DNA of 64,000 nt from Candidatus Pacearchaeota archaeon (GTDB lineage: Archaea > Nanobdellota > Nanobdellia > Pacearchaeales > GW2011-AR1): assembly GCA_041659945.1 (NCBI GenBank), contig JBAZXH010000001.1:693364-757363 (forward strand). Reading direction: 5' to 3'. The translations under genes were made by a program, and so were the position numbers. This document shows positions 33,871 through 64,000 of this stretch, piece after piece. Below the pieces are notes generated by a model. That model saw only the letters and a list, made by a program, of their open reading frames with translations. It was not told where the DNA came from and did not search any database. Within the stretch, counting starts at the first letter, position 1; each line of letters opens with the position of its first letter.

Positions 33871-34278
33871 ATGACAGAAAGATTAAGTGAAAAGGTATAT
33901 AGAATTCATTATGAACCTATAACCAACCCTTTTTTTGATAGTCGCTCAGCTATTGGTTTAGATTTAGAAAGAGGAGCTTTAGAAGTTCCGGTTCAGAGAT
34001 TATTTCATGATTATCAGAGACATTCTGGTCTTATAACAAGGCTTGGAGCAAGACCTGATGAAAATGAAAGGCATGTTGAAACTTATTTGATACATGGTTG
34101 TTTAGTACAATTCGTGCATCCTACTGAAGATCGAAAATTTATGACTGAAATTTTTTTAACTGGTGAAGATAAAGATAGAATGAGAGAAACAGCTACGGAT
34201 TTGGGTTTACCTTTTGATGAAGATCATTGTTTCACAAGGCAAGATGGATCAATAGGGTTTGGACCTGAAATAAAATAA
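33871..34278 (+). CDS. hypothetical protein (135 aa)
   Basis: ORF only. Confidence 0.4.
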   Translation: MTERLSEKVYRIHYEPITNPFFDSRSAIGLDLERGALEVPVQRLFHDYQRHSGLITRLGARPDENERHVETYLIHGCLVQFVHPTEDRKFMTEIFLTGEDKDRMRETATDLGLPFDEDHCFTRQDGSIGFGPEIK

Positions 34279-34297
34279 GATTAAAAATAATATTAAA

Positions 34298-34612
34298 ATG
34301 AACCGATTAAATAAAATAGACATTAGTTTTGTGGGAAGTGGAAGACCCGAAGTTACTGATTTATCTGCCTATGATCAATTCCCAGAAGTAGATCTTAGTT
34401 CTGCAGTTGTTGGATTTAGGGATTATGCTGCGAGAGTTGCACATCAAGTTGTTAATAGCCTTGCGGCTTTAGAAGGTTTACCTGAAGAAGAAAGAAATCG
34501 AAGGGCATTGGAGATAATAAGAGATACGGGAGTTGATTACCGAGGGGTTTTAAAGGAGATGTTTCCAGAGGATACTGGTGTCAGCTTGAGAATTGATTTT
34601 CCTGAGAAATAA
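34298..34612 (+). CDS. hypothetical protein (104 aa)
   Basis: ORF 19 nt after the previous one, probably co-transcribed. Confidence 0.4.
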   Translation: MNRLNKIDISFVGSGRPEVTDLSAYDQFPEVDLSSAVVGFRDYAARVAHQVVNSLAALEGLPEEERNRRALEIIRDTGVDYRGVLKEMFPEDTGVSLRIDFPEK

Positions 34613-34990
34613 CTATTGATCCACATAAGGATAATCTTGTTTTATTTTTGGTAAAATTTCAATCCAACATTCTTTTAATTTAGTATAATTGCCTGGGTTT
34701 GTAGCCCATAAGTTATTACAATCCATCCAGTATTTTGTAATATACTTAGCATCACTTTTAGTTGGAGTATATAAGCCCTCTCCGCATTTGTTCCAGCAAG
34801 TTGGTTCAAAAACTAAAATGGAATTATTTCTTTCATGAGGGACTATTGGACATTGCACCGAACAGCCAATAAATTTATATTCAAATGTATGCTCTCTTCT
34901 TTCATCAAGTTTTGTTTTTATTAAGTAACCACTAGCAATTATTATAACTAAAACTAAGCAGATTAAAAGAATTATCAACCACTTTTTCAT
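34613..34990 (-). CDS. membrane-anchored Cys-rich extracellular protein
   Basis: N-terminal TM WLIILLICLVLVIIIASGYLI and 8 Cys in the ectodomain. Confidence 0.5.
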   Translation of the reverse strand: MKKWLIILLICLVLVIIIASGYLIKTKLDERREHTFEYKFIGCSVQCPIVPHERNNSILVFEPTCWNKCGEGLYTPTKSDAKYITKYWMDCNNLWATNPGNYTKLKECWIEILPKIKQDYPYVDQ

Positions 34991-35014: not shown

Positions 35015-37879
35015 TTAAACTTTTAGACTTAAAACCTTACTTATTCCATTATTCATGCTTACACCGTAAATTACATTGGCACTTGAGATGATTGAATCAT
35101 TGTGGCTTATTACAATGTACTGGCCGGCTTTCATGTATTGCTTTAGTAAGTTTGAGAGGAGTTCGGAATTGCGCTTGTCAAGGGCAGCATCAATTTCATC
35201 TAGAATGTAGAAGCAATAGGGTTTGAATTCTTGGATTGCAAAGATCAATGAGAGAGCTACAAGGGTTTGTTCTCCGCCTGATAGAGAGGTAACATCAAAG
35301 TATTTTCCTTGAGCTATTTTGATTGTTATATTTACTCCGCCCTCAAAGATATCTTCTTGGTTTTCGATTTCTAGAAAGGCTTTACCCTTAACACTTAGAT
35401 GACTGAAATTTCTTGTGAAAAGATCATTTATGGCTGTGAAGGTTTTCATAAATGTTTTTTTCTTTTTTATGTCAATTTCATGGATTACTTTTAGGATTTC
35501 ATCTCTTTCCTTTTCCAATTGTTCAACTTTCTGGGAGATCTTATCATATTCTTCTTTTATTGAGTCATAGACTTCCAAAGCTCTAAGATTTACATTTCCT
35601 ATTTCCATGAGCATTCTTTCGGATTTTTCAAGTCTTTCCTGAAGAGATTGTTTGCTTCCGGGTAGAATTTCAACTTCATGGAATTCTCTTATTTCAAATT
35701 CTAGAGACTCTTTTTCAGCTGAGATGCGTGCTATGTTTATCTTGAAATTGTTTATTGAATCATCTATTCGGTTAAGGGCGTTTTGTTGATTAACTAGAAG
35801 TATGTTTTTATCCTTTAATCTTTCCTGAAGAGCAGTTCTTTCTTCAAATAACTTATTGAATTTTTCTGATAGCAGTTTTGAGGCTTTTTCTTTTTCTGAT
35901 AGCAGTTTTTCGTTTTGTTTTAAATCTATTGTGATTCTGGATATTTCATCTTCAATTTCTTTTCTGTCTTTTAGAATATTTTTTATTACATTTTTGATGT
36001 TTTCCAGTTCTCTTTCTTTGTATAGTATTGCGGTATCTAAACTTTCATCTGTTCGGGATGAAAGTTCCTGCATTTCAAAGAATAAACTTTGGTATTTCTT
36101 TTCAATTGATTCTCTATCCTGGAATTTCTTTTCAAGTCTTTTTTTACTTTCTTCTATTTCTAGAAGTTCTTTTTTTACATTTTCTTCATCAGCCATTAGC
36201 TTTCGCATGTGATCTTTCTTTTCTTGAACATTGCTTAGCTTGACTAGATCAAGCTTTTTTTCAGAATATAACCTTTGAAATGTTTGTATTTCGGTGTTTA
36301 TTGAAAGATATCTATCATTTAAGTCTGTTTGACTTGTTTTTAGTTTATTAATTTCTTCTTCTGCATGTTTTATTCTGTTGTCAGCATAGGTTAGAACATG
36401 AGATATGTGCGATTCGGTAAGTTTAGTCTGGCATAAAGGACAGGTATCTGTTTTTGGCATTTGTGCTTTTAATTTTTTATTTCTTTCAATTTCAGAATCT
36501 GCAACAGAAATCTGTTTTCCAATCTCTATTTTTTCGTGATTTGTTTCATTAAGATTTTTAATTAAACTTTCTATTTTTTCCCGGATTCTTATTATTTCTT
36601 CATTACATTGTTCAAGAGATTTTGAAGAAATCTCTTCTGAAAGTTGTTTTATTTGATTAAACAGAAATTTTGATTCACTTTGCATTCTCTCGAGTGTTTT
36701 TTCCTTGTCTCTTATTCTATCTCTAAAATTATTAAATTCTACCTGGTAGGAGTAGATTTTATCCCTTTCTTCTTGTATTTTTTCCAGCTCTTGTTTTTTC
36801 TTTTTTAGTTCATCTTGTCTTTTTGAGACTTTTGGGCTTTCCTTTTTTAGTTCTTCCAATTCTTTTTCCAGCTCTTTAGTGTTAGACTCTAGCTCTTTTT
36901 TTCTTATTTCATTGTCTGCTATTCTTTTTTCAAAGTTTTCCTTTCTGGCAGTATTTGAAGCTATTTTTACATTAAGATCTGTAATCTCTTCGTTTAGGGA
37001 CTCTCTTTCATAGCCTGTTGTTTTTTGGATAAATTGATTAATTTCGTTAATTCTATTTTCCATGGAGAGCATGTCTGTGTTTATTTGATCTATTTCTTTT
37101 TTTATTGTATCACGATATTTTTTGCTTTTTCCAATTTCACCCTCTACTGTACTAATCTCCTTTTCTTTTTCTTCTATACCTTTGTTTATTATGGAAGCTT
37201 TAGATTGCTTTACTGTTTTTTCAAGATCTTTAAATCTTAGAGCTTGTTTTCTTTCAAGTTCTAGGTTTTTTAGATAGCTTGTACGCTCCCTTAGAACAGC
37301 GTTAACTTCCTTTAGCTTTTGTTCTGTTTTTTCAATTTCTGAAAGAGCTTTTTGTTTTCTTGATTCGTAGATTGAAATTCCGGCAACTTCTTCTATTATT
37401 TTTCTTCTATCTTCACCGTGCATTTTTATGAATCTTGCAATTTCTCCCTGAAGTACAATGTTAAATCCGTTTGGATCAATTCCTGCTTGAGCTAGGAGTT
37501 CTAGGATTTCCTGGCGGGTTTTTGTTTCATTATTTATTTTATAGATGCTCATTCCATTTCTTCTTACAACTCTTTTTATTATTACTTCATTTGAGTCTAT
37601 GGAGAAAATTCTGTCTGAGTTATCAATAAACAATTCTACAGATGCTTCTTGTGCAGGTTTTTTTTCTTTATTACCCTGAAACAAAAGGTTTGCAGCTCTC
37701 GCAGCTCTCATGCTTTTAATGCTTAGTCTTCCAAGAACAAAACATAGTGCGTCTGAGATATTAGATTTTCCAGATCCATTTGGGCCAATAATTACATTTA
37801 TACCTGTGTCAAAGGGTAATTCTGTTCTAGGAGCAAAGCTTTTGAAGCCCTGTATCACCAGCTTTTTAATATAAGCCAT
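35015..37879 (-). CDS. SMC-family ATPase lacking a hinge, with a central CxxC (zinc-hook-like) motif
   Basis: SMC head: GFKSFA...GPNGSGKSNISDALCFVLG, Q-loop IVLQGEI, EEVAGISIYESRK, signature LSGGEQTLVALSLIFA, Walker B FYILDEIDAALD. 954 aa of K/E coiled coil with DTCPLCQTKL at about residue 483. Confidence 0.8.
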   Translation of the reverse strand: MAYIKKLVIQGFKSFAPRTELPFDTGINVIIGPNGSGKSNISDALCFVLGRLSIKSMRAARAANLLFQGNKEKKPAQEASVELFIDNSDRIFSIDSNEVIIKRVVRRNGMSIYKINNETKTRQEILELLAQAGIDPNGFNIVLQGEIARFIKMHGEDRRKIIEEVAGISIYESRKQKALSEIEKTEQKLKEVNAVLRERTSYLKNLELERKQALRFKDLEKTVKQSKASIINKGIEEKEKEISTVEGEIGKSKKYRDTIKKEIDQINTDMLSMENRINEINQFIQKTTGYERESLNEEITDLNVKIASNTARKENFEKRIADNEIRKKELESNTKELEKELEELKKESPKVSKRQDELKKKKQELEKIQEERDKIYSYQVEFNNFRDRIRDKEKTLERMQSESKFLFNQIKQLSEEISSKSLEQCNEEIIRIREKIESLIKNLNETNHEKIEIGKQISVADSEIERNKKLKAQMPKTDTCPLCQTKLTESHISHVLTYADNRIKHAEEEINKLKTSQTDLNDRYLSINTEIQTFQRLYSEKKLDLVKLSNVQEKKDHMRKLMADEENVKKELLEIEESKKRLEKKFQDRESIEKKYQSLFFEMQELSSRTDESLDTAILYKERELENIKNVIKNILKDRKEIEDEISRITIDLKQNEKLLSEKEKASKLLSEKFNKLFEERTALQERLKDKNILLVNQQNALNRIDDSINNFKINIARISAEKESLEFEIREFHEVEILPGSKQSLQERLEKSERMLMEIGNVNLRALEVYDSIKEEYDKISQKVEQLEKERDEILKVIHEIDIKKKKTFMKTFTAINDLFTRNFSHLSVKGKAFLEIENQEDIFEGGVNITIKIAQGKYFDVTSLSGGEQTLVALSLIFAIQEFKPYCFYILDEIDAALDKRNSELLSNLLKQYMKAGQYIVISHNDSIISSANVIYGVSMNNGISKVLSLKV

Positions 37880-37898
37880 TAAATGAAGAGGTTTTATA

Positions 37899-37912
37899 GT
37901 TTTTTAAACTTT
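37899..37912 (-). promoter_or_regulatory. BRE/TATA-like box for the SMC-like gene
   Basis: The minus strand reads aaagtttaaaaaac ~26 nt upstream of the ATG. Confidence 0.4.
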
Positions 37913-37963
37913 GATATGGCGTTTTAGAATGGATTAAGTTTCTAATTAACTCAATTTTTATTC

Positions 37964-39208
37964 TTATTCATGAATCGGCGTGTAGGCATTAGCTGAAGAA
38001 CTTCTTGTTTGAGGTCTTGCAACGGGTTTTGTTTTTGGCAGAGATTTTAATCCTGCATCACCCAGTTCAAATTCTCCGATTTCATCTATTCTGTCGCTAT
38101 CAAATTCCATTTGATGAACATTACATCCTTTAAAAAAACCATCATCATCTATATCAACAATTGCAAAGCAACCTGATGGAGAAGTTTTTCTGCCTTTATA
38201 GTAAATTGGTAGACTTATAAAATGTTCACTGCCTTTTTCTGGTTGACCTCTTTTATCTATTTCTCTTGTTTGACCTAATTCTACAAATGATGTTGGATCT
38301 ATTTGTTCAAGTTTATTATCAAGAGTTCTTCTTGGTCTACCAAGAACTCCGGGATTTATTACAACCGTGCCGTTTGGCAATCTTTGAACGTTTGGTAAAT
38401 TTCCAACTCCACATAATAACAGTACCGGATTATTTTCTTGAACCCATGATGAAACTGCGTAACTTCCAATGGGCATTAGTGAATAATGGGGTATATTGAA
38501 ATGCATAATTCCCTTTGAGGGCATGTTTGTAATTACAATGTCAGCATTTCTTCCATCTGCTTCATTTAGCACCTGATGAAGTCGGTCATCATCAAATGCC
38601 TCTGGAATTAGATCTAGTGGAAGATTGCCAAAACCCGGATTTGTTGATCCTCCATAGCCAACACAATCTAATTTTCTATCTGTTCCTCTTTGAACTAGAG
38701 GGATTTGCCTTTTAGATAGAGTTGTTGCAAGAGCATTTTGATCTCTTAGATAAGCATCTAGAATTGTTGAGTCAATATCTCCAGGTAGAATTACTAGACT
38801 ATTTGGAAGAAAGTCAGTCCATAGGTCTCTAAATTGAGCGTATTGAGCTTCTAGTTCTGGAGCGGCTTTTTCTAATAGTTCTTGATAGACTTGAGCATTT
38901 GCTGTGATAATGCCGTGTGTTCCCGGAGCGTGTCTAAGAGATTCTCTTAAACTCCCTTCTAGGGCCATCTGAGCTATTGAACTGAGGCTAGATGATTGAT
39001 ATGAGGCCATTGCAGGATGACATCTTAGAGAATATAGGCTTTGATTAGCTCGGGCCATTTTTACTCTATCATCTTCTGTATAAACTGGTCCGGCAATACT
39101 ACCAATGGCTACGACCGAAGAAATATCTCCGTGACTATCTGCAAAATCTCTTAGTCTTTTTAGGGTTTCAAAGTCTCCCTTTGGGTCTGTAAAAACTAGG
39201 GTTTTCAT
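37964..39208 (-). CDS. calcineurin-like metallophosphoesterase-fold protein with substituted metal ligands (putative pseudoenzyme)
   Basis: Strand pattern mirrors MPE motifs with ligands replaced: LVFTDPKGD (DxH), VVAIGSIAG (GD), LVILPGDID (GNH), IVITNMP (H), LLLCGVGN (GHxH), VVINPGVLG. Confidence 0.4.
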   Translation of the reverse strand: MKTLVFTDPKGDFETLKRLRDFADSHGDISSVVAIGSIAGPVYTEDDRVKMARANQSLYSLRCHPAMASYQSSSLSSIAQMALEGSLRESLRHAPGTHGIITANAQVYQELLEKAAPELEAQYAQFRDLWTDFLPNSLVILPGDIDSTILDAYLRDQNALATTLSKRQIPLVQRGTDRKLDCVGYGGSTNPGFGNLPLDLIPEAFDDDRLHQVLNEADGRNADIVITNMPSKGIMHFNIPHYSLMPIGSYAVSSWVQENNPVLLLCGVGNLPNVQRLPNGTVVINPGVLGRPRRTLDNKLEQIDPTSFVELGQTREIDKRGQPEKGSEHFISLPIYYKGRKTSPSGCFAIVDIDDDGFFKGCNVHQMEFDSDRIDEIGEFELGDAGLKSLPKTKPVARPQTRSSSANAYTPIHE

Positions 39209-39312
39209 GTTTTTACAGTGTTATTTGAGTTTTTAAATCTTATTATTTTATAACTGCATAGTGATTACAAAGCTCTAGTTTATTTAATAAACTTTGAATT
39301 TGATATTATTTT

Positions 39313-39963
39313 ATGAAAAAAGTCACACTAGTAGGGATTATTGTAATCATACTTATGTTTGCCATTGGAATTTATTTTTATCAATTTTTACCTGATAAAT
39401 TAGCTTCTCATTGGAATGCCCAGGGACAGGTTAATGGATATTCTTCAAAGGCCTTTGCTTTATTTTTTATGCCGATTATCACACTAGCTCTTTTTTTACT
39501 TCTTGTTTTTATACCTAAAATAGACCCCCTGAAACAGAATATTAGAAAGTTTAGTAGTTATTATTATGGTTTTATTTTGCTCTTTGTTTTTTATATGTTT
39601 TACATATATATTCTGACATTAGTTTCAAATTTAGGTTTTGTAATTAACTTTACTCAATTTCTTAGTCCGGCAATGGGTGTTTTATTCTTTTGTGTTGGAA
39701 TTTTAATCGAAAAGTCAAAAAGAAACTGGACAATTGGAATAAGGACTCCCTGGACATTGAGCAGTGATTTTGTTTGGAAGAAAACTCATAATCTTGGAGG
39801 AAAATTATTTAAGATATCTGGAGTTATTTGTTTTGTAGGAATTGTTTTACCAAAGTATGCTTTCTTTTTAATTATTATACCTGTAATAATTTCAGCTATT
39901 GTGTCTTTTGTTTATTCTTATTTTGTTTATAGATCTGAGAATTTGCTAAAGAAGAAAAGATAA
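39313..39963 (+). CDS. DUF1648/SdpI-family integral membrane protein
   Basis: LPDKLASHWNAQGQVNGYSSK motif after the first TM, and multiple TM helices. Confidence 0.6.
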   Translation: MKKVTLVGIIVIILMFAIGIYFYQFLPDKLASHWNAQGQVNGYSSKAFALFFMPIITLALFLLLVFIPKIDPLKQNIRKFSSYYYGFILLFVFYMFYIYILTLVSNLGFVINFTQFLSPAMGVLFFCVGILIEKSKRNWTIGIRTPWTLSSDFVWKKTHNLGGKLFKISGVICFVGIVLPKYAFFLIIIPVIISAIVSFVYSYFVYRSENLLKKKR

Positions 39964-40000
39964 GAGTAAGGCTTTTAAATGAATTATATGTGAGATTTTT

Positions 40001-40297
40001 ATGACAAGTTTAGTTCAGGCTGTTTATTTGAATGCTGCTAGCCCGAGCTATGCAGCAATTGTAGCTTATCAAGCTCATGCAACTCTTTCTCTTAATAGAA
40101 GAGAAGAAGAACCTATCCCCTATCAAGAAGTTATTCCTGAAGTTGGATGTGCTTTAGATTCAAGTTTTGATGTTTTACTTGGAGTTAAAAGGAGATTTCC
40201 AATGGCTTACATAAGAAGACCTAAAAAAAAGAAAGAGGTTAAACGTAGGAGACCTCTTTCAGAAGGAAGTATTGGTTTATTGGATGTTCTTGTTTAG
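40001..40297 (+). CDS. hypothetical protein (98 aa) with a basic C-terminal patch
   Basis: ORF only, with the RRPKKKKEVKRRRP segment. Confidence 0.35.
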   Translation: MTSLVQAVYLNAASPSYAAIVAYQAHATLSLNRREEEPIPYQEVIPEVGCALDSSFDVLLGVKRRFPMAYIRRPKKKKEVKRRRPLSEGSIGLLDVLV

Positions 40298-41199: not shown

Positions 41200-42171
41200 A
41201 TGGCTGAAGTAGAACCAGAACCAGAATTTGTTGTTGATGTTGATAGAATAGACTTGGTAAATACTACTTTGTGTGATGCCTTTAAGCAAGAGAGAGGTCT
41301 TTTTTCTGGAGGGTTTAAACAATTTTTACCTCAATGGAATTTGCCCTCTGAGGTGGAATTTGACCCTCCAGCAATAAAAGTACAAGATCCATTGAGAGCA
41401 TCATTGTACCTTTGGACATGTGCTTTTTTTGAAAGAATGAATCAATCAAGGTATATAATAACAAATGCAGCAAGAGTCTGGAATGATCCTAATAAACGAT
41501 GGTTTTTCCATCCAGTGCAGGTTGCTACGCATTCTTTAGAACAAATTTCAGATATAACTCTAGGAGAATTTCAATTTAATCTTACGGGTCTTAGAGAAGA
41601 ACCTCCTGAAAAAAGATATTTAGATAATGCTCTGCTTTTAGTTAATGAATATCATGGTGATCCACGTAAGCTAATAGAAGAAAGAACAGTTGAAGAGGCT
41701 AGAAAAAATATAATGCAATTTAAAGGAATCGGATCAGGAATAGCTAATTTGTACATATTATACCTTTTAGAAAGAGAAATTACAAGTCCAACTGATCCTG
41801 AGAATGTATTGTTAAAAGTAGATATTCATAAAGCAAGACTACTTTTAAATACTCAAGCAGTAAAAACAAAAAGTCAAAGAGTGAGAAGAGGCATGTTAAC
41901 TCCGGCGTTGGAAAAGGCATATTTAGAATCATCTAGGAGGCAGGGATTAGATCCACGTGATTTAGATGCTGCTTTGTGGATAACTGGTTCTGAAGGTTGT
42001 GCTAGGAGAGATTATAGCTTTTGTTTATATCATTGCGTTTTATGTGACAGTTTATGTACTTCTCTTATTGGCTATGATGAAAACACAAGTGATTTTCTTG
42101 TTTTTGATGATTCTCAAGGAACTAGAAGAGTTGATACAAGAAAAAATGTCGGACAATTAAGTTTATTTTAA
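41200..42171 (+). CDS. HhH-GPD superfamily (endonuclease III-like) DNA glycosylase-like protein with a Cys cluster
   Basis: HhH FKGIGSGIANLYILYL, VDIHKARLL (compare VDTHVxR), C-terminal C-x7-C-x3-C-x2-C-x3-C cluster. Confidence 0.55.
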   Translation: MAEVEPEPEFVVDVDRIDLVNTTLCDAFKQERGLFSGGFKQFLPQWNLPSEVEFDPPAIKVQDPLRASLYLWTCAFFERMNQSRYIITNAARVWNDPNKRWFFHPVQVATHSLEQISDITLGEFQFNLTGLREEPPEKRYLDNALLLVNEYHGDPRKLIEERTVEEARKNIMQFKGIGSGIANLYILYLLEREITSPTDPENVLLKVDIHKARLLLNTQAVKTKSQRVRRGMLTPALEKAYLESSRRQGLDPRDLDAALWITGSEGCARRDYSFCLYHCVLCDSLCTSLIGYDENTSDFLVFDDSQGTRRVDTRKNVGQLSLF

Positions 42172-42185
42172 TTAATTTATTGATG

Positions 42186-43241
42186 TTAAAACAAGGGCTC
42201 TTCTTCAGTTCCATCTTCTTCTGGTGGAGGAATATCAAATGGAACTTCTACTATACCTTTCATTTGTTCTTCTGTGGGTAAAAATAATTGTTTCTCACCA
42301 AAAACTGCATCTTCTGAATGAAATCTGGGAAGAGAATCTTCGTAAACTCGTTCTCTAGAGAATTCTCTTAATTGTTCTCTTGAAGTTTCGAGCCACTCTT
42401 TTCCTTCATCTTTGAAATCTATTGAAATAAACGGAAATTGGTGAACCTGTTTTCTATTTATTCTTAAACCTTTAACTTTTGATCTTGAAAAGGAAAATTT
42501 TCTAGATTTAAAACCAATTAATTCAAGAGTCTCTTCTGGATTAGATACTAGCATATTTAAAAATCTTGTTGAAACGCTCATAATGTGTTTTTCAGCATAA
42601 CCTCTGTATACTGGATCATATTGTCTACAGTAACAGTATATTCTTGTGGGAAAGCCATGGGGTTTTTCCATTGGTTGAGGTATGAAAAATGAAAGAGGTA
42701 TAGCTAGCGGAACTTTAATTCCATATAAAATTCCTCCTTTAACGAGTTCTTCAAGGTATGCGCTTCTTGTTAATCCTCTGTTTTCAGCGTGTTTTATATT
42801 ATGTCGAAAGAAAACATAGTGACATTTTGGAGGATTTTCTGGATTATCACTTTCAGGATCACTGTAAAGAACCCAATTGCAGTGTGTTTGAAGCTGTTCT
42901 TGAATAAGTTTTGTATCTGTTCCCCAAACACAAGCTTTTACTTCAGTGTAAATTCTATTTTTATGATCTGCAACATCTGGCTGATAACCTATTTCTTGTT
43001 TTCCATTGTGAAAGTGAGTGACACATCCGTGATGATGATATCCTCCTAGCATAGCTCCTGCAATTCTTTCAAAACAATATGCTCCAAATATTCCTAATTG
43101 TCTATATGGAACTTGTTCTCCCCATAGATCTGTTTGTTCATGATCTCCGGGCAAATAAATATTTCTTTGAGCTAGATCAAATGGTCTTTTGAAATCTTTT
43201 AGTTCACCTAGTAATCTCACCTGTTTTTTTGACCTCTCCAT
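42186..43241 (-). CDS. PD-(D/E)xK nuclease-fold protein
   Basis: Core motif QPDVADHKNRIYTEVKA (D ... E-x-K) in a 351-aa protein, convergent with the glycosylase-like gene (14-nt gap). Confidence 0.45.
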   Translation of the reverse strand: MERSKKQVRLLGELKDFKRPFDLAQRNIYLPGDHEQTDLWGEQVPYRQLGIFGAYCFERIAGAMLGGYHHHGCVTHFHNGKQEIGYQPDVADHKNRIYTEVKACVWGTDTKLIQEQLQTHCNWVLYSDPESDNPENPPKCHYVFFRHNIKHAENRGLTRSAYLEELVKGGILYGIKVPLAIPLSFFIPQPMEKPHGFPTRIYCYCRQYDPVYRGYAEKHIMSVSTRFLNMLVSNPEETLELIGFKSRKFSFSRSKVKGLRINRKQVHQFPFISIDFKDEGKEWLETSREQLREFSRERVYEDSLPRFHSEDAVFGEKQLFLPTEEQMKGIVEVPFDIPPPEEDGTEEEPLF

Positions 43242-43333
43242 TTGAGCTTAGAGTTTTTTTATTTTATAAAGATTAGACTATTATAACATATACTTTTAGA
43301 AGCATTTAAAAAAGAACGAAGATTCTAAGGTTT

Positions 43334-43409
43334 AGCGGAGTGGAGCAGCCTGGAGTGCTCGCGAGGCCCATAACCTCGAGGTCGCGTGGTTCAAATCCCG
43401 CCTCCGCTA
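43334..43409 (+). tRNA. tRNA-Met (anticodon CAU), initiator-like A1:U72
   Basis: Hand fold: acceptor AGCGGAG/CUCCGCU, D-arm GAGC/GCUC, anticodon stem CGAGG/CCUCG with loop CCCAUAA, T-loop UUCAAAU. The T-stem needs one bulged U. Confidence 0.75.
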
Positions 43410-43512
43410 TTCTGCGGGATTTGGTTCAAATACTTACATTTGTGAGAATGAAAGTTGCCAAAATTTAGAAGGAATTTTTAGCACCCACCTATGCTACTCT
43501 TGGGATTTGAAA

Positions 43513-44091: not shown

Positions 44092-44207
44092 AATTTTCTA
44101 GAGAATGTCTTATATAAAAAGAATTAGGTGATTTAGAATAACTCTTTATTTAGATTAAAAACTGGAAAACAATAACTTTAAATCCCTTAATTTTATTCTA
44201 TAACTGT

Positions 44208-44290
44208 GCCCAGTTCGCATAGCGGTATTGCACGGGGTTGCTAACCCCGACCGGGTAACCGGTGGGCAGGTTCGACTCCTGCACTGGGCG
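44208..44290 (+). tRNA. tRNA-Ser (anticodon GCU)
   Basis: Hand fold: acceptor GCCCAGU/ACUGGGC, anticodon stem CGGGG/CCCCG with loop UUGCUAA, long variable arm ACCGGGUAACCGGUGG, T-arm GCAGG-UUCGACU-CCUGC. Confidence 0.9.
44276..44290 (+). repeat. attL-like direct repeat (tRNA-Ser 3' end)
   Basis: ctcctgcactgggcg. Confidence 0.6.
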
Positions 44291-44349
44291 GATGGGAAAA
44301 GTCCGACACTCTTACTGTGGTTTAATAGCCACAACAAAAGTAAGAGAAT

Positions 44350-52829: not shown

Positions 52830-53489
52830 ATGAACTACAAATTATCTCCAAGTTCACTAAGCTTAATGCATGATTGTCCTAGATGTTTTTGGTTGGAAAA
52901 ACACAAGGTCTGGCAAAGGCCTGCAGGTATTTTTCCGAGTTTGCCAAGTGGAATGGACAGAATTTTGAAAATACATTTTGATAAATTTAGAGACAGAGGG
53001 ATGCTGCCTCCAGAATTGTGTACAAATCATGATTGTTCTAGTATGAGACTTTTTGGTATAAATGAAGATGAAAGAGAGCTGTTAAAAGTTTGGAGAGATG
53101 GTTTAAAGGGAGTTAGATGGCAAGATAAAGCTGGAAATGTTCTTTGTGGAGCGGTTGATACTCTGCTCGTTAAGGATAAGAAACTGATTGTTTTAGACTA
53201 TAAGACTCGCGGTTTTCCTTTGAGAGAAAATACTCATGAGTATTATAAAGATCAGATTGACATTTATACTTTTTTGTTGAGAAAGAATGGGTTTGAAACA
53301 GAAGACTTTGGATTTTTGTTATTTTATTTTCCTGATAAAGTTCTTGAAACTGGAGAAGTTCTTTTTGAGACTAAGTTGATTAAACTGAATGTTAATATAA
53401 AGAATGCTGAAGAATTGTTTATGAAAGGGTTGAGAGTTTTAGAAGGTGATTGTCCGAGAGAAACTTGTGAGTGGTGTGAGAGAGTTTAA
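52830..53489 (+). CDS. PD-(D/E)xK nuclease with Cys cluster (Cas4/RecB-like)
   Basis: N-terminal CPRC, core GAVDTLL...LIVLDYKT, QIDIYTFLL, C-terminal CPRETCEWC. Confidence 0.65.
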   Translation: MNYKLSPSSLSLMHDCPRCFWLEKHKVWQRPAGIFPSLPSGMDRILKIHFDKFRDRGMLPPELCTNHDCSSMRLFGINEDERELLKVWRDGLKGVRWQDKAGNVLCGAVDTLLVKDKKLIVLDYKTRGFPLRENTHEYYKDQIDIYTFLLRKNGFETEDFGFLLFYFPDKVLETGEVLFETKLIKLNVNIKNAEELFMKGLRVLEGDCPRETCEWCERV

Positions 53490-53496
53490 TAAATAG

Positions 53497-54243
53497 CTAC
53501 CTCTTTTTTGTTTTAGGAACTGTTGCATATGCAACAAATCCTCGTTTACCATATCCATCGAATATAATGGCAGGTCTTACTTCATCATATCTTTCAAGAA
53601 CGGAAATTAAAGCAGGGTATTGTACTGTATGTATGCGTCTTCCCTCTTTATCTCTTTCACCAGCCCCTCTTTTTTCATTGATTAATTTTGCTATAGTCTT
53701 CAAAGGAATAAAGGCTCCTTGAGGTAGATTGCTTGTTGATTCTTCTAAAATCCTCAGAGCCATTTTTGCAATTTCAGTTTGAATACCAAAGGTTTTTATT
53801 AGATTAGGAGTAGGTGTTAAGAAATGTCTATATCCAACTAATAAAATTTTTCCAGTTTCTTCATAAACCGGAGCATGTTGTAGTGACTCTCTTTCTAGTT
53901 CTTTTTGAAATGCTTCTTCTATATGTTTTGAGAGGATTAAAATCGGAAATGTTCCATTTTTATCTCTATTAACCCTGTTTGCTAGTCCTGCTGAGGAAAC
54001 ATAGCTTCTTGGAGGTATTTGTGCTTCTATTGATGTTAGAATTGGTAATGTTTCTTGAGCTAATTTTTCTAAATCAATGTGAACCGCATTTGAATGTTTT
54101 GTTTTTGGTTTTCCCGGATTAAACACTCTTTTTTCTTCAGCTTCCTCCTGCTGAACTGCTGCTTCTACTACCTCTGAAATTAAATATCTCCCAGAAGTTC
54201 CTCCCCTCCTTTCTTTCAAATCTTTGTAATGCATTTTAATCAC
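53497..54243 (-). CDS. hypothetical protein (248 aa)
   Basis: 8-nt overlap with the upstream phosphoesterase gene stop (translational coupling). No motif recognised. Confidence 0.45.
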   Translation of the reverse strand: MIKMHYKDLKERRGGTSGRYLISEVVEAAVQQEEAEEKRVFNPGKPKTKHSNAVHIDLEKLAQETLPILTSIEAQIPPRSYVSSAGLANRVNRDKNGTFPILILSKHIEEAFQKELERESLQHAPVYEETGKILLVGYRHFLTPTPNLIKTFGIQTEIAKMALRILEESTSNLPQGAFIPLKTIAKLINEKRGAGERDKEGRRIHTVQYPALISVLERYDEVRPAIIFDGYGKRGFVAYATVPKTKKR

Positions 54244-54997
54244 TTTCTAAACTTTTTAATTTTCCAAAGTCATATATGGAATTTTTATCTCCGACAATAA
54301 AAACATTAAATGTTTTTAATTTTTCTGGTGGTACAATGCATGCTTCTTTTTCCACATGATCATTGACACTACTTCCTTCTACTAGTGGGAAGAAACTTGG
54401 AAGTATGAAAAACTGTTTTCCTTTGTATTTTCCAATTAGAAAACATTTGTATTTTTCAGATCTGTTGCTTTGAGAATCATTTATTCGTATTGCTGGATGT
54501 AAATGGCCCATGATAACTTTTTTTATTGATTTGTCTTTAATTTCTGGAATAAATTTATCTCCATGAATAAATATTGTATCTTCGTAAATATAATGAGTTA
54601 GGAATGTTCTATCTGCAATGTCAATCTTTTCATGATTACCTTTTAATAATATTACATTTTCTCTGGAGACATGTTTTTCAATGACTTTCATTACGTCTAG
54701 GAAGATATTTTTCTCTTGACTTTTATAAGCAAAAAAATGTTTAATGTCCCCAAGGAAAACTATCTTATTTATCTTTACTTTTCTGTTCTTTAGATAATTA
54801 AATATTTCATTCAGGTCATCTATTGTTTGTTTAATTTGAGTTTGTGGAAGAAGAGATCCGCCCTCACGAAGCATAAATTCAAATCCAAGATGTAGATCAC
54901 CAATTACAAGGATTTTTTGTTTTATTAGAAAGAGGGATTTACCAATAAGCTCGTATTCTTTGTTTTTATCTGCTTGTTCAAATAGGTTAAGTTGCAT
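54236..54997 (-). CDS. metallophosphoesterase (SbcD/Mre11-related archaeal type)
   Basis: Intact MPE motifs GDLHLG, LGDIKH, GNHE, GHLHP. Confidence 0.75.
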   Translation of the reverse strand: MQLNLFEQADKNKEYELIGKSLFLIKQKILVIGDLHLGFEFMLREGGSLLPQTQIKQTIDDLNEIFNYLKNRKVKINKIVFLGDIKHFFAYKSQEKNIFLDVMKVIEKHVSRENVILLKGNHEKIDIADRTFLTHYIYEDTIFIHGDKFIPEIKDKSIKKVIMGHLHPAIRINDSQSNRSEKYKCFLIGKYKGKQFFILPSFFPLVEGSSVNDHVEKEACIVPPEKLKTFNVFIVGDKNSIYDFGKLKSLESD

Positions 54998-62236: not shown

Positions 62237-64000
62237 TTATTTCTCTTTTCCTTCAATAATCTTCACATGTAACTCGTGCATTCTTTTTAGGAATTCTTGT
62301 TTATCTTCGATTTTTATTAGATCTGTGTGACCCTGAAGCATAAGATTTAGTGCAAATGGAGAAGGAAGCTGAGTTTCTCTTATTTTTATATTTATGAGAC
62401 CGTCCTTTATTTGTTTTAGAACAAATGTTGTATTTTCAATATCCATAACATCTTCCAGGACTTCACGCCTTGCTTCTTGCAATATTGGGAAGGTTTTTGA
62501 GACTTTTTTTACAGCATTCATAAGAAAATAACTTTTCATCTGTTGTCGCCCAACGCTTCGGTTTTCACCTTTATAATTTCTTAAAATCATTAGAGATCTT
62601 GTTGCACAATGTCTAAATCTTCTTGCAAGAATGTCTGTTCGTTCAATTGATTCTGTTAGAACTTCTTTTAGATTGTCTACTGTTAAGAATTCTAGAGCTT
62701 TTTCAAATGGTAGTTTTTCTCCTGCAAAATAAAAACCATTGTCATTAATTCCTACTTCTATATCTCTTCCTCCCGCATTACCCATTAAAAATCCAATTGA
62801 TCGTGAGAGAGCATCATTGACTCTTCTGCCATACATGCTATGAACTAGAAGATAGTTTTTTTCACCTTTATATTTTTCAATTAAGATTAGCTCTTTATTT
62901 GGAATCTCAGAGAATTTAAATTGTTCGTGAAAATAGCTGTAAATTGATTCGCTCACGGAATCATCAATGTGGAGATATTCTTTTATTGTTTCTTTTATTT
63001 CTTTTGGTTTTTTGTTTGATTTTAATTCTTTGTTTAATAAAGATCTAAGTTTATTTATTTCATTTGCAGAGTCAAAACTTAAGGGTAGCATTTCTGAAAA
63101 CCATGAGGGTATTGTTGGGTTTCTATTTATTGCAGGTTTAACATAGATATTCATTCCTCTTGTATAAAGGAAAACATATTTATGTCCGCCAAGAACAAAT
63201 ACATCACCTTTTTTCATACGTTCCATAAAACCCTCATCAATGACTCCTATTTTCTCTCCTGCCGGAGAGAGTTTGACTGTAATGTAGGATTCTTCGGGGA
63301 TTGTTCCGATGTTAGAAAAGTAAATTACTCTAGCCATTTTACCTTTTTTACCAATTTGATTTGTGGAAGAGTCATACCAGATTTTTGCATAAACATAATT
63401 CTTTTCCAAGTCGTATTCACCAGCTAGATAGCTTATCACATCATAAAAATCATTTTTTGAAAGTTCTGAATAGCAATAGCTCTTTTTTATTAGGTTAAAT
63501 AACTCGGTTATATCCCAAATTTTTGTTATGGCCATACCATAGATCTGTTGTGATAGAACATCGAGACAATTTTTTGGAAATCTTATTTTGTCAATTTTCT
63601 TTTCAATCATCTCTTTTTGAATAACTGCGCATTCTACTAGATCATCTCTATCCATAACAACAAATCTTCCCTTTGCAACTTCGTGTAGTTTATGACCTGC
63701 TCGTCCAATTCTTTGTAGTGCACGAGAACTTGCTTTTGGAGAGCCTAACATTATAACTAGATCAATGTAACCAATGTCAATGCCTAATTCTAAACTTGTA
63801 CTGCATACTACAACCTTTATTTCACCGTTTCTTAATCGTTCTTCAATATTAAATCTGTGAACTTTGCTTAGAGATGAGTGATGTGCTGCAATATTTTCTG
63901 AATATTCTGTTGGAAATTTTTCTTTTAAACGATTAACAACTCTTTCTGTTCCGGCTCGCGTATTTGTAAAGATTAGTGTTGTTTTGTGTTCTTTTACAAG
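62237..64000 (-). CDS. Lhr-like DEAD/DEAH-box helicase (partial; N-terminus beyond the window)
   Basis: The frame stays open to the window edge (…TLIFTNTRAGTE…VVVCSTSLELGIDIG…). Motif VI QRIGRAGH and a long Lhr-type C-terminal domain. Confidence 0.8.
   Translation of the reverse strand, partial: LVKEHKTTLIFTNTRAGTERVVNRLKEKFPTEYSENIAAHHSSLSKVHRFNIEERLRNGEIKVVVCSTSLELGIDIGYIDLVIMLGSPKASSRALQRIGRAGHKLHEVAKGRFVVMDRDDLVECAVIQKEMIEKKIDKIRFPKNCLDVLSQQIYGMAITKIWDITELFNLIKKSYCYSELSKNDFYDVISYLAGEYDLEKNYVYAKIWYDSSTNQIGKKGKMARVIYFSNIGTIPEESYITVKLSPAGEKIGVIDEGFMERMKKGDVFVLGGHKYVFLYTRGMNIYVKPAINRNPTIPSWFSEMLPLSFDSANEINKLRSLLNKELKSNKKPKEIKETIKEYLHIDDSVSESIYSYFHEQFKFSEIPNKELILIEKYKGEKNYLLVHSMYGRRVNDALSRSIGFLMGNAGGRDIEVGINDNGFYFAGEKLPFEKALEFLTVDNLKEVLTESIERTDILARRFRHCATRSLMILRNYKGENRSVGRQQMKSYFLMNAVKKVSKTFPILQEARREVLEDVMDIENTTFVLKQIKDGLINIKIRETQLPSPFALNLMLQGHTDLIKIEDKQEFLKRMHELHVKIIEGKEK

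What the first reader, a model, noticed from the sequence alone, without database searches (positions are those of the whole stretch)
35015..39208. Hinge-less SMC-head ATPase with a Rad50-style CxxC hook, preceded by a metallophosphoesterase-fold protein with all metal ligands substituted
The 954-aa ATPase has unmistakably SMC-type head motifs: GFKSFA...GPNGSGKSNISDALCFVLG, IVLQGEIARFI, EEVAGISIYESRK, LSGGEQTLVAL, FYILDEIDAALD. It is shorter than canonical SMC and shows no hinge-like segment. Instead a CPLC motif (DTCPLCQTKLTESH) sits at about residue 483 of 954, at the predicted coiled-coil apex, as in Rad50 zinc hooks.

Directly upstream on the same strand (84-nt gap), where mre11 precedes rad50 in archaeal operons, is a 414-aa protein. 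Its strand order mimics calcineurin-like phosphoesterases, but each metal-binding motif is altered:
- DxH becomes DPK
- GD becomes GS
- GNH becomes GDI
- H becomes N
- GHxH becomes GVGN

No kleisin (ScpA/ScpB) gene is adjacent. Together they look like an undescribed SMC/Rad50-hybrid module with a dead-nuclease partner. Caveat: the ATPase has its own TATA-like box (37899-37912), so co-transcription is not assured.
Basis: partly seen in the sequence, partly recalled or inferred. Interest (0 to 1): 0.75.

Follow-up and report, generated by a model that had tools for sequence, protein, structure and literature searches.

The report
Hinge-less SMC with zinc hook
A chromosome-organising SMC ATPase of a small DPANN archaeon carries a Rad50-style zinc hook where the usual hinge should be, a natural counterpart of a lab-made chimera, while the 'dead phosphoesterase' gene beside it is a strain-specific neighbour and not a partner.

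Summary
Both ORFs exist as described. The 954-aa ATPase (35015-37879, -) has bona fide SMC heads: Pyrococcus Smc head E 1e-103 against Rad50 1e-14, and NCBIfam SMC 549 bits against Rad50 124. It has no hinge. Two ~300-340-residue helical arms meet at a 16-residue loop holding C480-P-L-C483.

That CPxC(Q/K)xx(L/I/M)(T/S)xxH motif is present in all 83 related loci examined and sits 477-483 residues into the protein in 82 of them. All come from Pacearchaeota/Nanoarchaeota/'Woesearchaeota' MAGs. A profile of the apex hits the P. furiosus Rad50 zinc-hook structure (1L8D, E 3e-5). The protein is therefore a natural hinge-to-hook SMC. It mirrors the engineered, functional B. subtilis Smc(Zh). I found no paper describing it.

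The 414-aa upstream ORF is a real but degenerate metallophosphoesterase. It has remote homologues with intact motifs, and its fold matches aq_1956 and TT1561. It keeps only D8 of seven ligand/catalytic positions. It is not Mre11-like, and the pairing is not conserved: 0 of ~80 relatives have it upstream, and two have a homologue 1-2.6 kb downstream. Each gene has its own TATA box at -29.

Verdict: the hook-SMC reading is supported and the 'dead-nuclease partner module' reading is not. It is a new variant of a known kind.

The parts
35015..37879 (-). Gene for the 954-aa hinge-less SMC with a zinc hook
   Evidence: ORF. Pfam SMC_N 2e-54. NCBIfam SMC_prok_A 548.8 bits, below the 729.4 cutoff. PDB Pyrococcus Smc head 1.5e-103. 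Foldseek top hits are condensin Smc4/Smc2 and Pyrococcus Smc.
37763..37786 (-). Walker A / P-loop GPNGSGKS (residues 32-39)
   Evidence: Translation check. G32, N34, G35, G37, K38 and S39 are invariant in 32 homologues.
36464..37375 (-). N-terminal coiled-coil arm (residues 169-472)
   Evidence: AF2 helices 169-345, 355-415 and 422-472. It is collinear with SMC_prok_A positions up to 467/1165 and with SMC2/SMC3 arms up to residue ~452.
36296..36556 (-). Rad50-like hook segment (residues 442-528): hook-proximal coiled coil plus apex
   Evidence: A profile of this segment (A3) aligns end to end with the P. furiosus Rad50 zinc hook, 1L8D E 3.1e-5 and 6ZFF 3.4e-5, and with the human RAD50 hook 5GOX at 0.027. 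Pfam Rad50_zn_hook E 0.003, 17.7 bits, below GA.
36431..36442 (-). CPLC zinc-hook motif (C480-C483) in the 16-residue apex loop (473-488, 36416-36463)
   Evidence: Invariant in 32/32 aligned homologues and present in 83/83 loci. It lies in the only non-helical stretch between the arms.
35396..36415 (-). C-terminal coiled-coil arm (residues 489-828)
   Evidence: AF2 helices 489-586, 589-608, 614-733, 743-760 and 766-828. It aligns with SMC4/SMC1 C-terminal arms from residue ~534.
35177..35284 (-). ABC signature LSGGE (35270-35284) and Walker B/D-loop FYILDEIDAALD (35177-35212)
   Evidence: Translation check. The residues are invariant.
37901..37908 (-). TATA box TTTAAAAA of smc, starting 29 nt upstream of the ATG
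   Evidence: The same box position (-29/-27) occurs in 21 of 60 window genes.
37964..39208 (-). Gene for a 414-aa degenerate metallophosphoesterase-fold protein. It is a neighbour only and is not part of an SMC module.
   Evidence: Exhaustive phmmer found 23 remote homologues, E down to 3e-15; 20 of the 23 aligned sequences, i.e. 20 of 22 homologues, hit Pfam Metallophos families. AF2 pLDDT 74, pTM 0.78. Foldseek: 2YVT 2e-8, 1UF3 1.6e-7. Codon-position GC (0.54/0.41/0.19) is like that of host genes.
38399..39190 (-). Degenerate MPE motifs I-V: TDPKGD (39173-39190), IGSI (39095-39106), PGDID (38771-38785), ITNMPS (38516-38533), CGVGN (38399-38413)
   Evidence: Alignment A2 against homologues with SDIHGD / GDL / PGNWD / THxPP / CGHxH. 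Coordinates.
39230..39237 (-). Own TATA box TTTAAAAA of the 414-aa gene, at -29

Best explanation
The 954-aa protein is this lineage's SMC (condensin-type) ATPase. The hinge dimerisation domain and a short stretch of flanking coil (roughly residues 450-530) have been replaced by a Rad50/ASRP-type zinc hook.

Shown: SMC-type heads with every ATPase motif; near full-length arms that align with SMC arms; a conserved CPxC...H apex; no hinge; core-genome synteny across about 80 species.

Inferred: each monomer folds back into a ~45-50 nm antiparallel coiled coil. Two monomers are joined at the apex by one Zn2+ held by the four cysteines of two CPLC motifs. ATP-driven head engagement then operates as in Smc-ScpAB to organise or segregate the chromosome. 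On this reading the hinge fold and its DNA-binding surface are dispensable in this clade.

The 414-aa gene upstream is an independently transcribed, strain-specific accessory gene. It encodes a catalytically dead member of a fast-evolving TT1561/aq_1956-like metallophosphoesterase family. It sits in a variable slot next to smc and is not an Mre11 analogue or an obligate partner.
For: Heads are SMC, not Rad50:
- PDB Pyrococcus Smc head 1.5e-103 and B. subtilis Smc 2e-75, against Rad50 3e-14.
- NCBIfam SMC_prok_A 548.8 and SMC_prok_B 536.6 bits, against Rad50 <=124 and ASRP 143.
- Foldseek places SMC structures first.

No hinge:
- No PF06470 hit.
- None of the 120 best homologue clusters carries PF06470.
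- AF2 leaves only a 16-residue loop between the arms.

Hook:
- CPxC, H491 and V495 are invariant.
- CPxC is present in 83/83 loci, at position 477-483 in 82 of them and at 492 in one.
- The apex profile hits Rad50 hooks 1L8D and 6ZFF at 3e-5, sharing CPxC-x3-LT-x2-H.
- Pfam Rad50_zn_hook matches in the correct register, and PF04423 is precomputed for two homologues.

Arm length: the 954-residue body has no indels among 32 homologues down to 49% identity, apart from one 1-residue gap and C-terminal tails. This fits the 'tuned arm' constraint of Burmann 2017.

Housekeeping character:
- Conserved synteny with RNase HII (72 loci), a surface protein (67), an AP endonuclease (54) and DnaG (29).
- Inteins occur in some orthologues.
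- The window is core chromosome: rpoB, rpoA, S12, S7, EF-2, EF-1a.

Functional precedent: B. subtilis Smc with its hinge replaced by the Pfu Rad50 zinc hook supports normal growth (PMC5344682).

Neighbour gene: MPE fold, not Mre11; pairing not conserved; separate TATA boxes; the MPE family evolves fast: 38% identity where SMC is 72%.
Against: - There is no direct evidence for zinc binding or dimerisation.
- The AF2 run was a monomer with low pTM (0.34) and poorly modelled heads. I could read only its secondary structure, not its coordinates.
- Hook homology is moderate: 27 bits to 1L8D, and Pfam is below its gathering score.
- I could not inspect the remaining ~770 kb of the genome. A second, canonical hinge-SMC, ScpAB, Rad50 or Mre11 may or may not exist there.
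- No kleisin gene lies near smc in the window or in any of ~80 relatives, which leaves open whether this SMC uses ScpAB at all.
- Three of the four closest genomes keep an MPE-family gene within 3 kb of smc. I read this as inherited synteny, but a loose functional link is not excluded.
Confidence: 0.7

Rival explanations
1. One reading: the hook-ATPase and the upstream dead phosphoesterase form a two-gene SMC/Rad50-hybrid module analogous to Mre11-Rad50, with the pseudo-nuclease as a structural partner.
For: The two genes are on the same strand with an 84-nt gap. The neighbour has an MPE fold. Homologues of it lie within 1-2.6 kb of smc in two sister genomes.
Against: - No Mre11/SbcD similarity by sequence or fold; the nearest structures are TT1561, aq_1956 and MJ0936.
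- No relative among the 88 loci has the gene upstream of smc, and only 2 genomes carry a homologue at all, downstream and in different arrangements.
- Each gene has its own TATA box at -29.
- In total the MPE family has only 24 detectable members (including the query) among 1.8e9 representatives, whereas the hook-SMC is in hundreds of genomes.
Confidence: 0.05
2. The hook protein is an extra SMC-related paralogue (functionally like ClsN/ASRP, or a repair factor) that coexists with a canonical hinge-SMC/ScpAB encoded elsewhere in the genome.
For: The NCBIfam ASRP profile is the best match to the apex segment, 40.7 bits against 28.9 for Rad50. The protein fails the SMC equivalog cutoff. No kleisin is adjacent. 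The rest of the genome was not inspected.
Against: - Heads and arms match SMC over their whole length at 549 bits, while ASRP matches only the coil region.
- It is 954 aa against ~600 aa for ASRPs (PMC9389158).
- The heads share 44-51% identity with Pyrococcus SMC heads.
- Genomes are tiny (~0.4-0.86 Mb contigs).
- Synteny is conserved and housekeeping-like.
Confidence: 0.15
3. The conserved CPxC is not an intermolecular zinc hook. It might be a structural turn, a redox-sensitive pair or an intramolecular metal site, and dimerisation occurs otherwise or not at all.
For: No experimental or multimer-model evidence was obtained. The Pfam hook score is below the gathering threshold.
Against: The motif sits exactly at the coiled-coil apex. 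The extended signature CPxC-x3-(L/I)(T/S)-x2-H matches the Pfu Rad50 hook residue for residue. It is invariant across all homologues examined. An SMC that cannot dimerise at the apex would have no known mode of action.
Confidence: 0.07
4. It is the lineage's Rad50 orthologue (double-strand-break repair) whose head merely looks SMC-like.
For: It has a zinc hook, is close in length to Rad50 (~880 aa), and gives weak Rad50 NCBIfam hits along the whole length.
Against: Rad50 models score 74-124 bits against cutoffs of 700-1087, while SMC scores 549. PDB Rad50 heads score 3e-14 against 1.5e-103 for SMC. No Mre11 is adjacent in any locus.
Confidence: 0.03

Closest known systems
Prokaryotic Smc of Smc-ScpAB (e.g. 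Pyrococcus furiosus/yayanosii Smc, B. subtilis Smc; TIGR02169/TIGR02168)
   Same: Head sequence and all ATPase motifs are shared. The arms are near full length and collinear with SMC arms. The gene is single-copy-looking and sits in a core genomic context.
   Different: There is no hinge domain; about 210 residues are missing compared with the 1165-position model. A CPxC hook sits at the apex. The protein scores below the equivalog cutoff. No scpA or scpB gene is adjacent.
Engineered B. subtilis Smc(Zh) chimera (Burmann et al. 2017, Mol Cell, PMC5344682)
   Same: The architecture is the same: SMC heads and arms with a Rad50-type zinc hook in place of the hinge. The chimera is functional in vivo and still depends on arm length. 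The natural protein has strictly conserved arm length.
   Different: The chimera is an artificial construct with a P. furiosus hook in a bacterial Smc. Here the architecture is natural, ancient enough to span homologues of 47-75% identity, and found in archaea.
Rad50 zinc hook (P. furiosus 1L8D/6ZFF; Pfam PF04423)
   Same: A CPxC-x3-LT-x2-H motif at the apex of an antiparallel coiled coil. The profile match is E 3e-5 over ~87 residues.
   Different: The heads are SMC and not Rad50, and there is no Mre11 partner.
Archaea-specific SMC-related proteins (ASRP: ClsN/coalescin, Sph1/Sph2; Yoshinaga 2022, PMC9389158; NF045487)
   Same: Archaeal, SMC-superfamily, hinge-less and with a zinc hook. The ASRP profile gives the best score on the apex segment.
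   Different: ASRPs are ~600 aa with divergent heads. Here the ASRP model matches only the coil (143 bits, cutoff 300), while SMC models match the heads and arms.
'Hinge-less' SMC clade of marine Actinobacteria (Sussfeld et al. 2025, PMC12153180)
   Same: Natural SMC-clade proteins lacking the hinge.
   Different: That clade is bacterial and is explicitly reported to lack the CxxC motif. This one is archaeal and has an invariant CPxC hook.
TT1561 (1UF3) / aq_1956 (2YVT) / MJ0936-type metallophosphoesterases (Pfam Metallophos_2/_3), for the 414-aa neighbour
   Same: These are the best fold and profile matches. TT1561 itself shows degenerate motifs (SNPMGD, GN, PGPQD) in the alignment, so inactive-looking members have a precedent.
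   Different: The window protein has a ~90-residue helical insert between motifs II and III, which its family shares. It also has a ~50-residue low-confidence insertion and a disordered tail, and it has lost 6 of 7 ligand/catalytic residues.

Membership tests
SMC proper (Smc of Smc-ScpAB; TIGR02169/PF02463+PF06470) | ABC-type head with Walker A, Q-loop, signature LSGGE, Walker B/D-loop and H-loop, closest to SMC heads | tested here: met
SMC proper (Smc of Smc-ScpAB; TIGR02169/PF02463+PF06470) | Two long helical arms (~300+ residues each) folding back on each other | tested here: met
   AF2 secondary structure gives helical arms at 169-472 and 489-828.
SMC proper (Smc of Smc-ScpAB; TIGR02169/PF02463+PF06470) | Globular hinge dimerisation domain (PF06470) between the arms | tested here: not met
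   No PF06470 hit at E<=0.01 on the whole protein or at E<=10 on the mid-segment. None of the 120 homologue clusters has it. Only a 16-residue loop lies between the arms.
SMC proper (Smc of Smc-ScpAB; TIGR02169/PF02463+PF06470) | Score at or above the NCBIfam equivalog cutoff | tested here: not met
   548.8 < 729.4 (SMC_prok_A) and 536.6 < 567.35 (SMC_prok_B).
SMC proper (Smc of Smc-ScpAB; TIGR02169/PF02463+PF06470) | Kleisin ScpA and ScpB partners encoded in the genome | not testable with these tools
   Not adjacent in the window or in ~80 relatives, and absent from the Pfam-scanned ORFs of the 64-kb window. The rest of the 832-kb contig could not be read.
Rad50/SbcC | CxxC zinc hook at the coiled-coil apex | tested here: met
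   Zinc binding itself was not testable.
Rad50/SbcC | Rad50-type head (equivalog models) | tested here: not met
   Rad50 models score 74-124 bits against cutoffs of 700-1087. PDB Rad50 3e-14 against SMC 1.5e-103.
Rad50/SbcC | Adjacent or co-conserved Mre11/SbcD nuclease | tested here: not met
   The neighbour is not Mre11-like. No canonical-motif MPE or second SMC-like ATPase occurs in any of the 88 loci.
ASRP (ClsN/Sph; NF045487) | Score at or above the model cutoff with a match over the heads; ~600 aa | tested here: not met
   143 bits < 300, with the match confined to residues 309-654 (coil and hook); the protein is 954 aa.
Defence SMC-likes (Wadjet JetC, Lamassu LmuB, etc.; PADLOC) | Strong match to a defence model plus the partner genes | tested here: not met
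   Only generic hits were found: mad3 180 bits to the C-terminal head, LmuB 94, JetC 32. No neighbour gave any hit. The synteny is housekeeping-like.
Calcineurin-like metallophosphoesterase (414-aa ORF) | MPE beta-sandwich fold and homology to family members | tested here: met
   phmmer E down to 3e-15 to proteins that hit PF00149, PF12850 and PF14582. Foldseek 2YVT 2e-8, 1UF3, and purple acid phosphatases.
Calcineurin-like metallophosphoesterase (414-aa ORF) | Metal-ligand motifs DxH / GD / GNH(D/E) / H / GHxH | tested here: not met
   Only D8 is retained: H10K, D37S, N144D, H228N, H268V, H270N. The protein itself gives no Pfam hit.
Mre11/SbcD (414-aa ORF) | Sequence or fold similarity to the Mre11 nuclease and capping domains | tested here: not met
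   No NCBIfam, Pfam or PDB sequence hit. No Mre11/SbcD among the top 50 Foldseek hits.

The most novel reading that the evidence does not exclude
A large DPANN radiation (Pacearchaeota-type and Woesearchaeota-labelled Nanoarchaeota) has permanently replaced the SMC hinge with a zinc hook captured from Rad50 or an ASRP. Its chromosomal SMC may run without an adjacent, and possibly without any, ScpAB kleisin. That would make it a natural SMC/Rad50 architectural intermediate, and it would show that neither the hinge fold nor hinge-DNA contacts are required for SMC function in vivo.
Probability: 0.2. Interest if true: 0.8.

Novelty: new variant of a known kind. Interest (0 to 1): 0.6.

Why it matters
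The hinge is treated as a defining part of SMC proteins. It has been proposed as a DNA-binding site and as a DNA entry gate, and its necessity is debated. The only evidence that it can be swapped for a zinc hook comes from an engineered B. subtilis chimera (PMC5344682).

A natural, strictly length-conserved hook-SMC maintained across hundreds of archaeal species would show that evolution found the same solution. It would supply many sequences for asking which arm and apex features really matter. It also gives a concrete case of domain exchange between the SMC and the Rad50/ASRP branches of the superfamily.

On the practical side, these proteins are currently named 'chromosome segregation SMC family protein' with no note of the missing hinge. 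Surveys that require a hinge to call an SMC would miss them.

The neighbouring dead phosphoesterase matters less. It is a clean example of a pseudoenzyme arising in a fast-evolving accessory family.

Tried and rejected
- Mre11 analogy for the 414-aa ORF. Pfam, NCBIfam and PDB sequence searches were empty. The word-indexed homology search found only the protein itself. The exhaustive phmmer search then recovered a small MPE family that is TT1561/aq_1956-like and not Mre11.
- Foreign or compositional island for the 414-aa ORF. Rejected: GC3 of 0.19 and the GC1>GC2>GC3 pattern are like host genes.
- Conserved operon partner or kleisin next to smc. All ORFs of the 88 loci were clustered and representatives scanned with Pfam. 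Only RNase HII, a surface protein, an AP endonuclease, DnaG-like Toprim, DUF7557, PCMT and TPR proteins came up. There was no ScpA/ScpB.
- ScpA/ScpB/Rad50/Mre11 elsewhere in the window. None found among the Pfam-scanned ORFs, which cover all but a few of the >=100-aa ORFs. This is uninformative for the other ~770 kb.
- Defence-system SMC. PADLOC gave only generic hits.
- The odd 98-aa ORF at 40001-40297 as a hidden RNA gene. No credible Rfam match and unremarkable composition.
- Viral-contig scan with the MPE alignment. It failed because no stretch was conserved enough.
- Literature. Four searches found no description of a natural SMC with a zinc hook, or of kleisins, in DPANN.
- The third homologous-protein search was deliberately not used. 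Its top-120 output would again list the same dense family and would not reach the hook/hinge boundary.

Full report
**1. Observation**

A 954-aa ORF lies at 35015-37879(-) and a 414-aa ORF at 37964-39208(-), 84 nt apart. All quoted ATPase motifs are present and were mapped to coordinates. CPLC occupies residues 480-483.

The window is low-GC (~33%) archaeal core chromosome. It carries rpoB, rpoA, nusA-like KH, S12, S7, EF-2, EF-1alpha, RNase HII, DnaG-like primase and TyrRS/TrpRS. It belongs to an 832,568-bp contig.

**2. The ATPase is an SMC by its heads and arms**

- Pfam SMC_N scores 2e-54.
- NCBIfam SMC_prok_A and SMC_prok_B score 548.8 and 536.6 bits. The best Rad50 model scores 124 bits, ASRP 143 and arcadin-4 41.
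- Against PDB sequences the best matches are Pyrococcus Smc heads (1.5e-103) and B. subtilis Smc (2e-75). Rad50 heads reach only 3e-14.
- The SMC_prok_A match covers residues 3-473 against model positions 1-467 of 1165. Eukaryotic SMC2/3 align to residues 3-452, and SMC4/SMC1 align from ~534 to 950. So both arms, not just the heads, are SMC-derived.
- A Foldseek search with the AF2 model ranks condensin Smc4/Smc2, Pyrococcus Smc head plus coiled coil, and Smc5/6 first. Rad50 comes lower.

**3. There is no hinge, and the apex is a Rad50-type hook**

- PF06470 gives no hit on the whole protein at E<=0.01 or on residues 392-580 at E<=10.
- The protein is ~210 residues shorter than the SMC model and falls below both equivalog cutoffs.
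- AF2 (32-sequence alignment, mean pLDDT 74) predicts helices 169-345, 355-415 and 422-472. A 16-residue loop (473-488) holding C480 and C483 follows. Then come helices 489-586, 589-608, 614-733, 743-760 and 766-828. pLDDT is 83-93 in the helices on either side of the apex and about 68 in the apex loop itself.
- C480, P481, C483, H491 and V495 are invariant in 32 homologues down to 49% identity.
- A profile of residues 440-530 (A3) hits the P. furiosus Rad50 zinc-hook crystal structures 1L8D and 6ZFF at 3e-5 over ~87 residues, and human RAD50 hook 5GOX at 0.027. The two share CPxC-x3-LT-x2-H.
- Pfam Rad50_zn_hook matches in the right register but below its gathering score (E 0.003, 17.7 bits). 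Two homologues carry a precomputed PF04423 hit.
- On the apex segment alone, the ASRP profile scores slightly better than the Rad50 profiles (40.7 against 28.9 bits). The donor of the hook, Rad50 or an ASRP, is therefore undecided.
- The Rad50-like similarity spans residues ~442-528, and the SMC-like similarity covers ~3-452 and ~534-950. This brackets the exchanged piece.

**4. It is a family, not an accident**

- The 120 best protein clusters (49-100% identity, 949-1082 aa apart from two shorter partial entries (868 and 880 aa) and four intein-bearing ones) come from Pacearchaeota/Nanoarchaeota MAGs. Where the source gives a name, most are called 'chromosome segregation SMC family protein' or a close variant. 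None has a hinge domain.
- A scan of GTDB species genomes found at least 502 loci encoding a relative. The best 80 (47-73% identity) are all labelled Pacearchaeota, Nanoarchaeota, 'Woesearchaeota' or unclassified archaeon, with a few evident mislabels.
- In all 83 loci with a complete gene, CP[LIVM]C is present. It lies at position 477-483 in Walker-A register in 82 loci and at 492 in one. The motif is CPxC(Q/K)xx(L/I/M)(T/S)xxH.
- Within alignment A1 the whole 954-residue body has no indels except one single-residue gap. All length variation is a C-terminal tail. This extreme arm-length conservation fits the finding that SMC arm length and register are functionally tuned (PMC5344682).

**5. 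Genomic context**

- RNase HII accompanies smc in 72 of the related loci, a ~410-aa Ig-like surface protein in 67, an AP endonuclease in 54 and a DnaG-like Toprim protein in 29.
- No kleisin-sized conserved neighbour exists, and no ScpA/ScpB Pfam hit appears in any inspected neighbourhood.
- PADLOC gives only generic SMC-superfamily hits, and none of the neighbours is a defence gene.
- Some orthologues carry LAGLIDADG inteins (P0048, P0051, P0097, P0100). Inteins typically sit in conserved sites of essential proteins.
- Together this points to a housekeeping chromosomal SMC.

**6. The 414-aa neighbour**

- Pfam, NCBIfam, PDB sequence and word-indexed homology searches all found nothing.
- An exhaustive phmmer search over 1.84e9 representatives found 23 remote homologues: 24-31% identity across the aligned full-length homologues, mostly 250-355 aa, E down to 3e-15.
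- Of the 23 aligned sequences, 20 hit Pfam Metallophos, Metallophos_2 or Metallophos_3, i.e. 20 of the 22 homologues, since the query itself hits nothing.
- Most homologues carry SDIHGD / GDL / PGNWD / THxPP / CGHxH. The window protein has TDPKGD / GS / PGDID / TNMPS / CGVGN instead.
- The family profile's nearest solved relatives are TT1561, aq_1956, MJ0936 and YfcE.
- AF2 gives pLDDT 74 and pTM 0.78. Foldseek gives aq_1956 (2e-8), TT1561, purple acid phosphatases and Dbr1. No Mre11/SbcD appears in the top 50.
- So the 'metallophosphoesterase fold with dead active site' observation is correct, and the Mre11 analogy is not.
- Codon-position GC is host-like, so the gene appears to be a real, resident one.

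**7. The pairing is not conserved**

- In the closest relatives (SMC 73-75% identical), RNase HII and a short ORF precede smc. No MPE gene is upstream.
- An HMM of the MPE family finds homologues in only two genomes among the 88 loci: L003=L010 and L004=L005. They lie 1.0 and 2.6 kb downstream of smc in different arrangements and have intact motifs.
- Those two homologues share 38% identity where their SMCs share 72%, so the family evolves fast. The window copy is at 24-25% identity to them.
- The SdpI-like gene, orf98, orf125, orf104 and orf135 flanking smc in the window have no counterpart in any locus. smc therefore sits between variable slots.
- In this genome, TTTA(A/T)A boxes start at -29 or -27 from the ATG in 21 of 60 genes, a leaderless-type pattern. 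smc, the 414-aa gene and orf125 each have one at -29. This argues for separate transcription units.

**8. Mechanism**

- Shown: SMC heads with intact ATPase motifs, SMC-derived arms of conserved length, no hinge, and an invariant Rad50-like CPxC...H apex.
- Inferred: each monomer forms a ~45-50 nm antiparallel coiled coil (about 300-340 residues per strand). Two monomers dimerise through one Zn2+ coordinated by four cysteines. ATP-dependent head engagement acts as in Smc-ScpAB.
- The engineered B. subtilis Smc(Zh), in which the hinge was replaced by the Pfu Rad50 hook, supports normal growth. It keeps the same arm-length dependence (PMC5344682). The reverse swap also works in Rad50 (PMC6969161). 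These make the inferred mechanism plausible.
- Open: whether a kleisin is used.

**9. Comparison and novelty**

- ASRPs (ClsN/Sph) are hinge-less archaeal SMC-related proteins with hooks, but they are ~600 aa with divergent heads (PMC9389158).
- A hinge-less SMC clade in marine Actinobacteria explicitly lacks CxxC (PMC12153180).
- Four full-text searches found no report of a natural SMC with a zinc hook. Absence from this library is not proof of absence from the literature.
- I rate it a new variant of a known kind. It is of real interest to the SMC field as a natural hinge-replacement experiment. The 'SMC/Rad50 hybrid module with a dead nuclease' reading is not supported.

**10. Limits**

- I could not read the rest of the genome, so a second SMC, ScpAB, Rad50 or Mre11 elsewhere remains unknown.
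- I could not run a multimer prediction or access model coordinates.
- I did not build a head phylogeny or locate the hook/hinge boundary within Nanoarchaeota.
- Taxon labels are those of MAG submitters.

Noticed in passing
P0048, P0051, P0097, P0100; L020 6001-8748 (match starts at residue 39): Several orthologues of the hook-SMC are 1307-1490 aa and carry LAGLIDADG and intein-splicing domains. The L020 match begins right after the P-loop, which suggests an intein inserted in or next to Walker A.
   Followed up: no
window 35015-37879 and alignment A1: The 954-residue body of the SMC has no indels at all among 32 homologues down to 49% identity, apart from one 1-residue gap. All length variation is a C-terminal tail of 3-128 residues.
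   Followed up: partly
whole window (60 gene starts): TTTA(A/T)A boxes start at exactly -29 (14 genes) or -27 (7 genes) from the ATG. This implies mostly leaderless transcripts and offers a usable promoter rule for this genome.
   Followed up: partly
window 33871-34990 and 39313-40297: smc is flanked on both sides by small ORFs that have no homologue in any of the 88 related loci: 135, 104 and 125 aa on one side, and an SdpI/DUF1648 membrane protein and a 98-aa ORF on the other. These look like variable slots around a conserved core gene.
   Followed up: partly
window 41200-43241, next to tRNA-Met 43333-43410 and tRNA-Ser 44207-44291: Two unannotatable ORFs (323 and 351 aa; no Pfam or PADLOC hit) have homologues in only 1 and 6 related loci. 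They lie next to two tRNA genes and may be a small integrated or accessory element.
   Followed up: no
window 7453-10875: A single 1140-aa ORF contains Rpb1 domains 1-5. The RNA polymerase largest subunit therefore appears unsplit, whereas it is usually split into A' and A'' in archaea (from general knowledge, not tested here).
   Followed up: no
window 52830-54997 and 62237-63751: A second metallophosphoesterase with a clear Pfam hit (253 aa, 54236-54997, PF00149 2.6e-10) sits beside an unknown 245-aa ORF and a PD-(D/E)XK nuclease (52830-53489). A 504-aa protein with only the Lhr C-terminal domains (WH_Lhr plus DEAD_assoc) lies at 62237-63751.
   Followed up: no
window 25620-26126 and 18813-19955: A 168-aa SET-domain protein (PF00856, 1.4e-16) and a 380-aa protein with a weak RelA/SpoT-like region, in a very small archaeal genome.
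   Followed up: no
alignment A2 (P0126, P0139, P0140): Other members of the rare MPE family also show partly degenerate motifs, for example AGIYGD/GN/PGKTD/CGDNGN in P0139 and SDVQGD/GN/PGYTD in P0140. Loss of catalytic residues seems recurrent. The solved relative TT1561 (1UF3) is degenerate too.
   Followed up: no
L010, L011, L073: Contigs carrying near-identical archaeal hook-SMC loci are labelled 'Candidatus Paceibacterota bacterium', 'Candidatus Aenigmarchaeum sp.' and 'Parcubacteria group bacterium'. These are probably MAG taxonomy mislabels.
   Followed up: no
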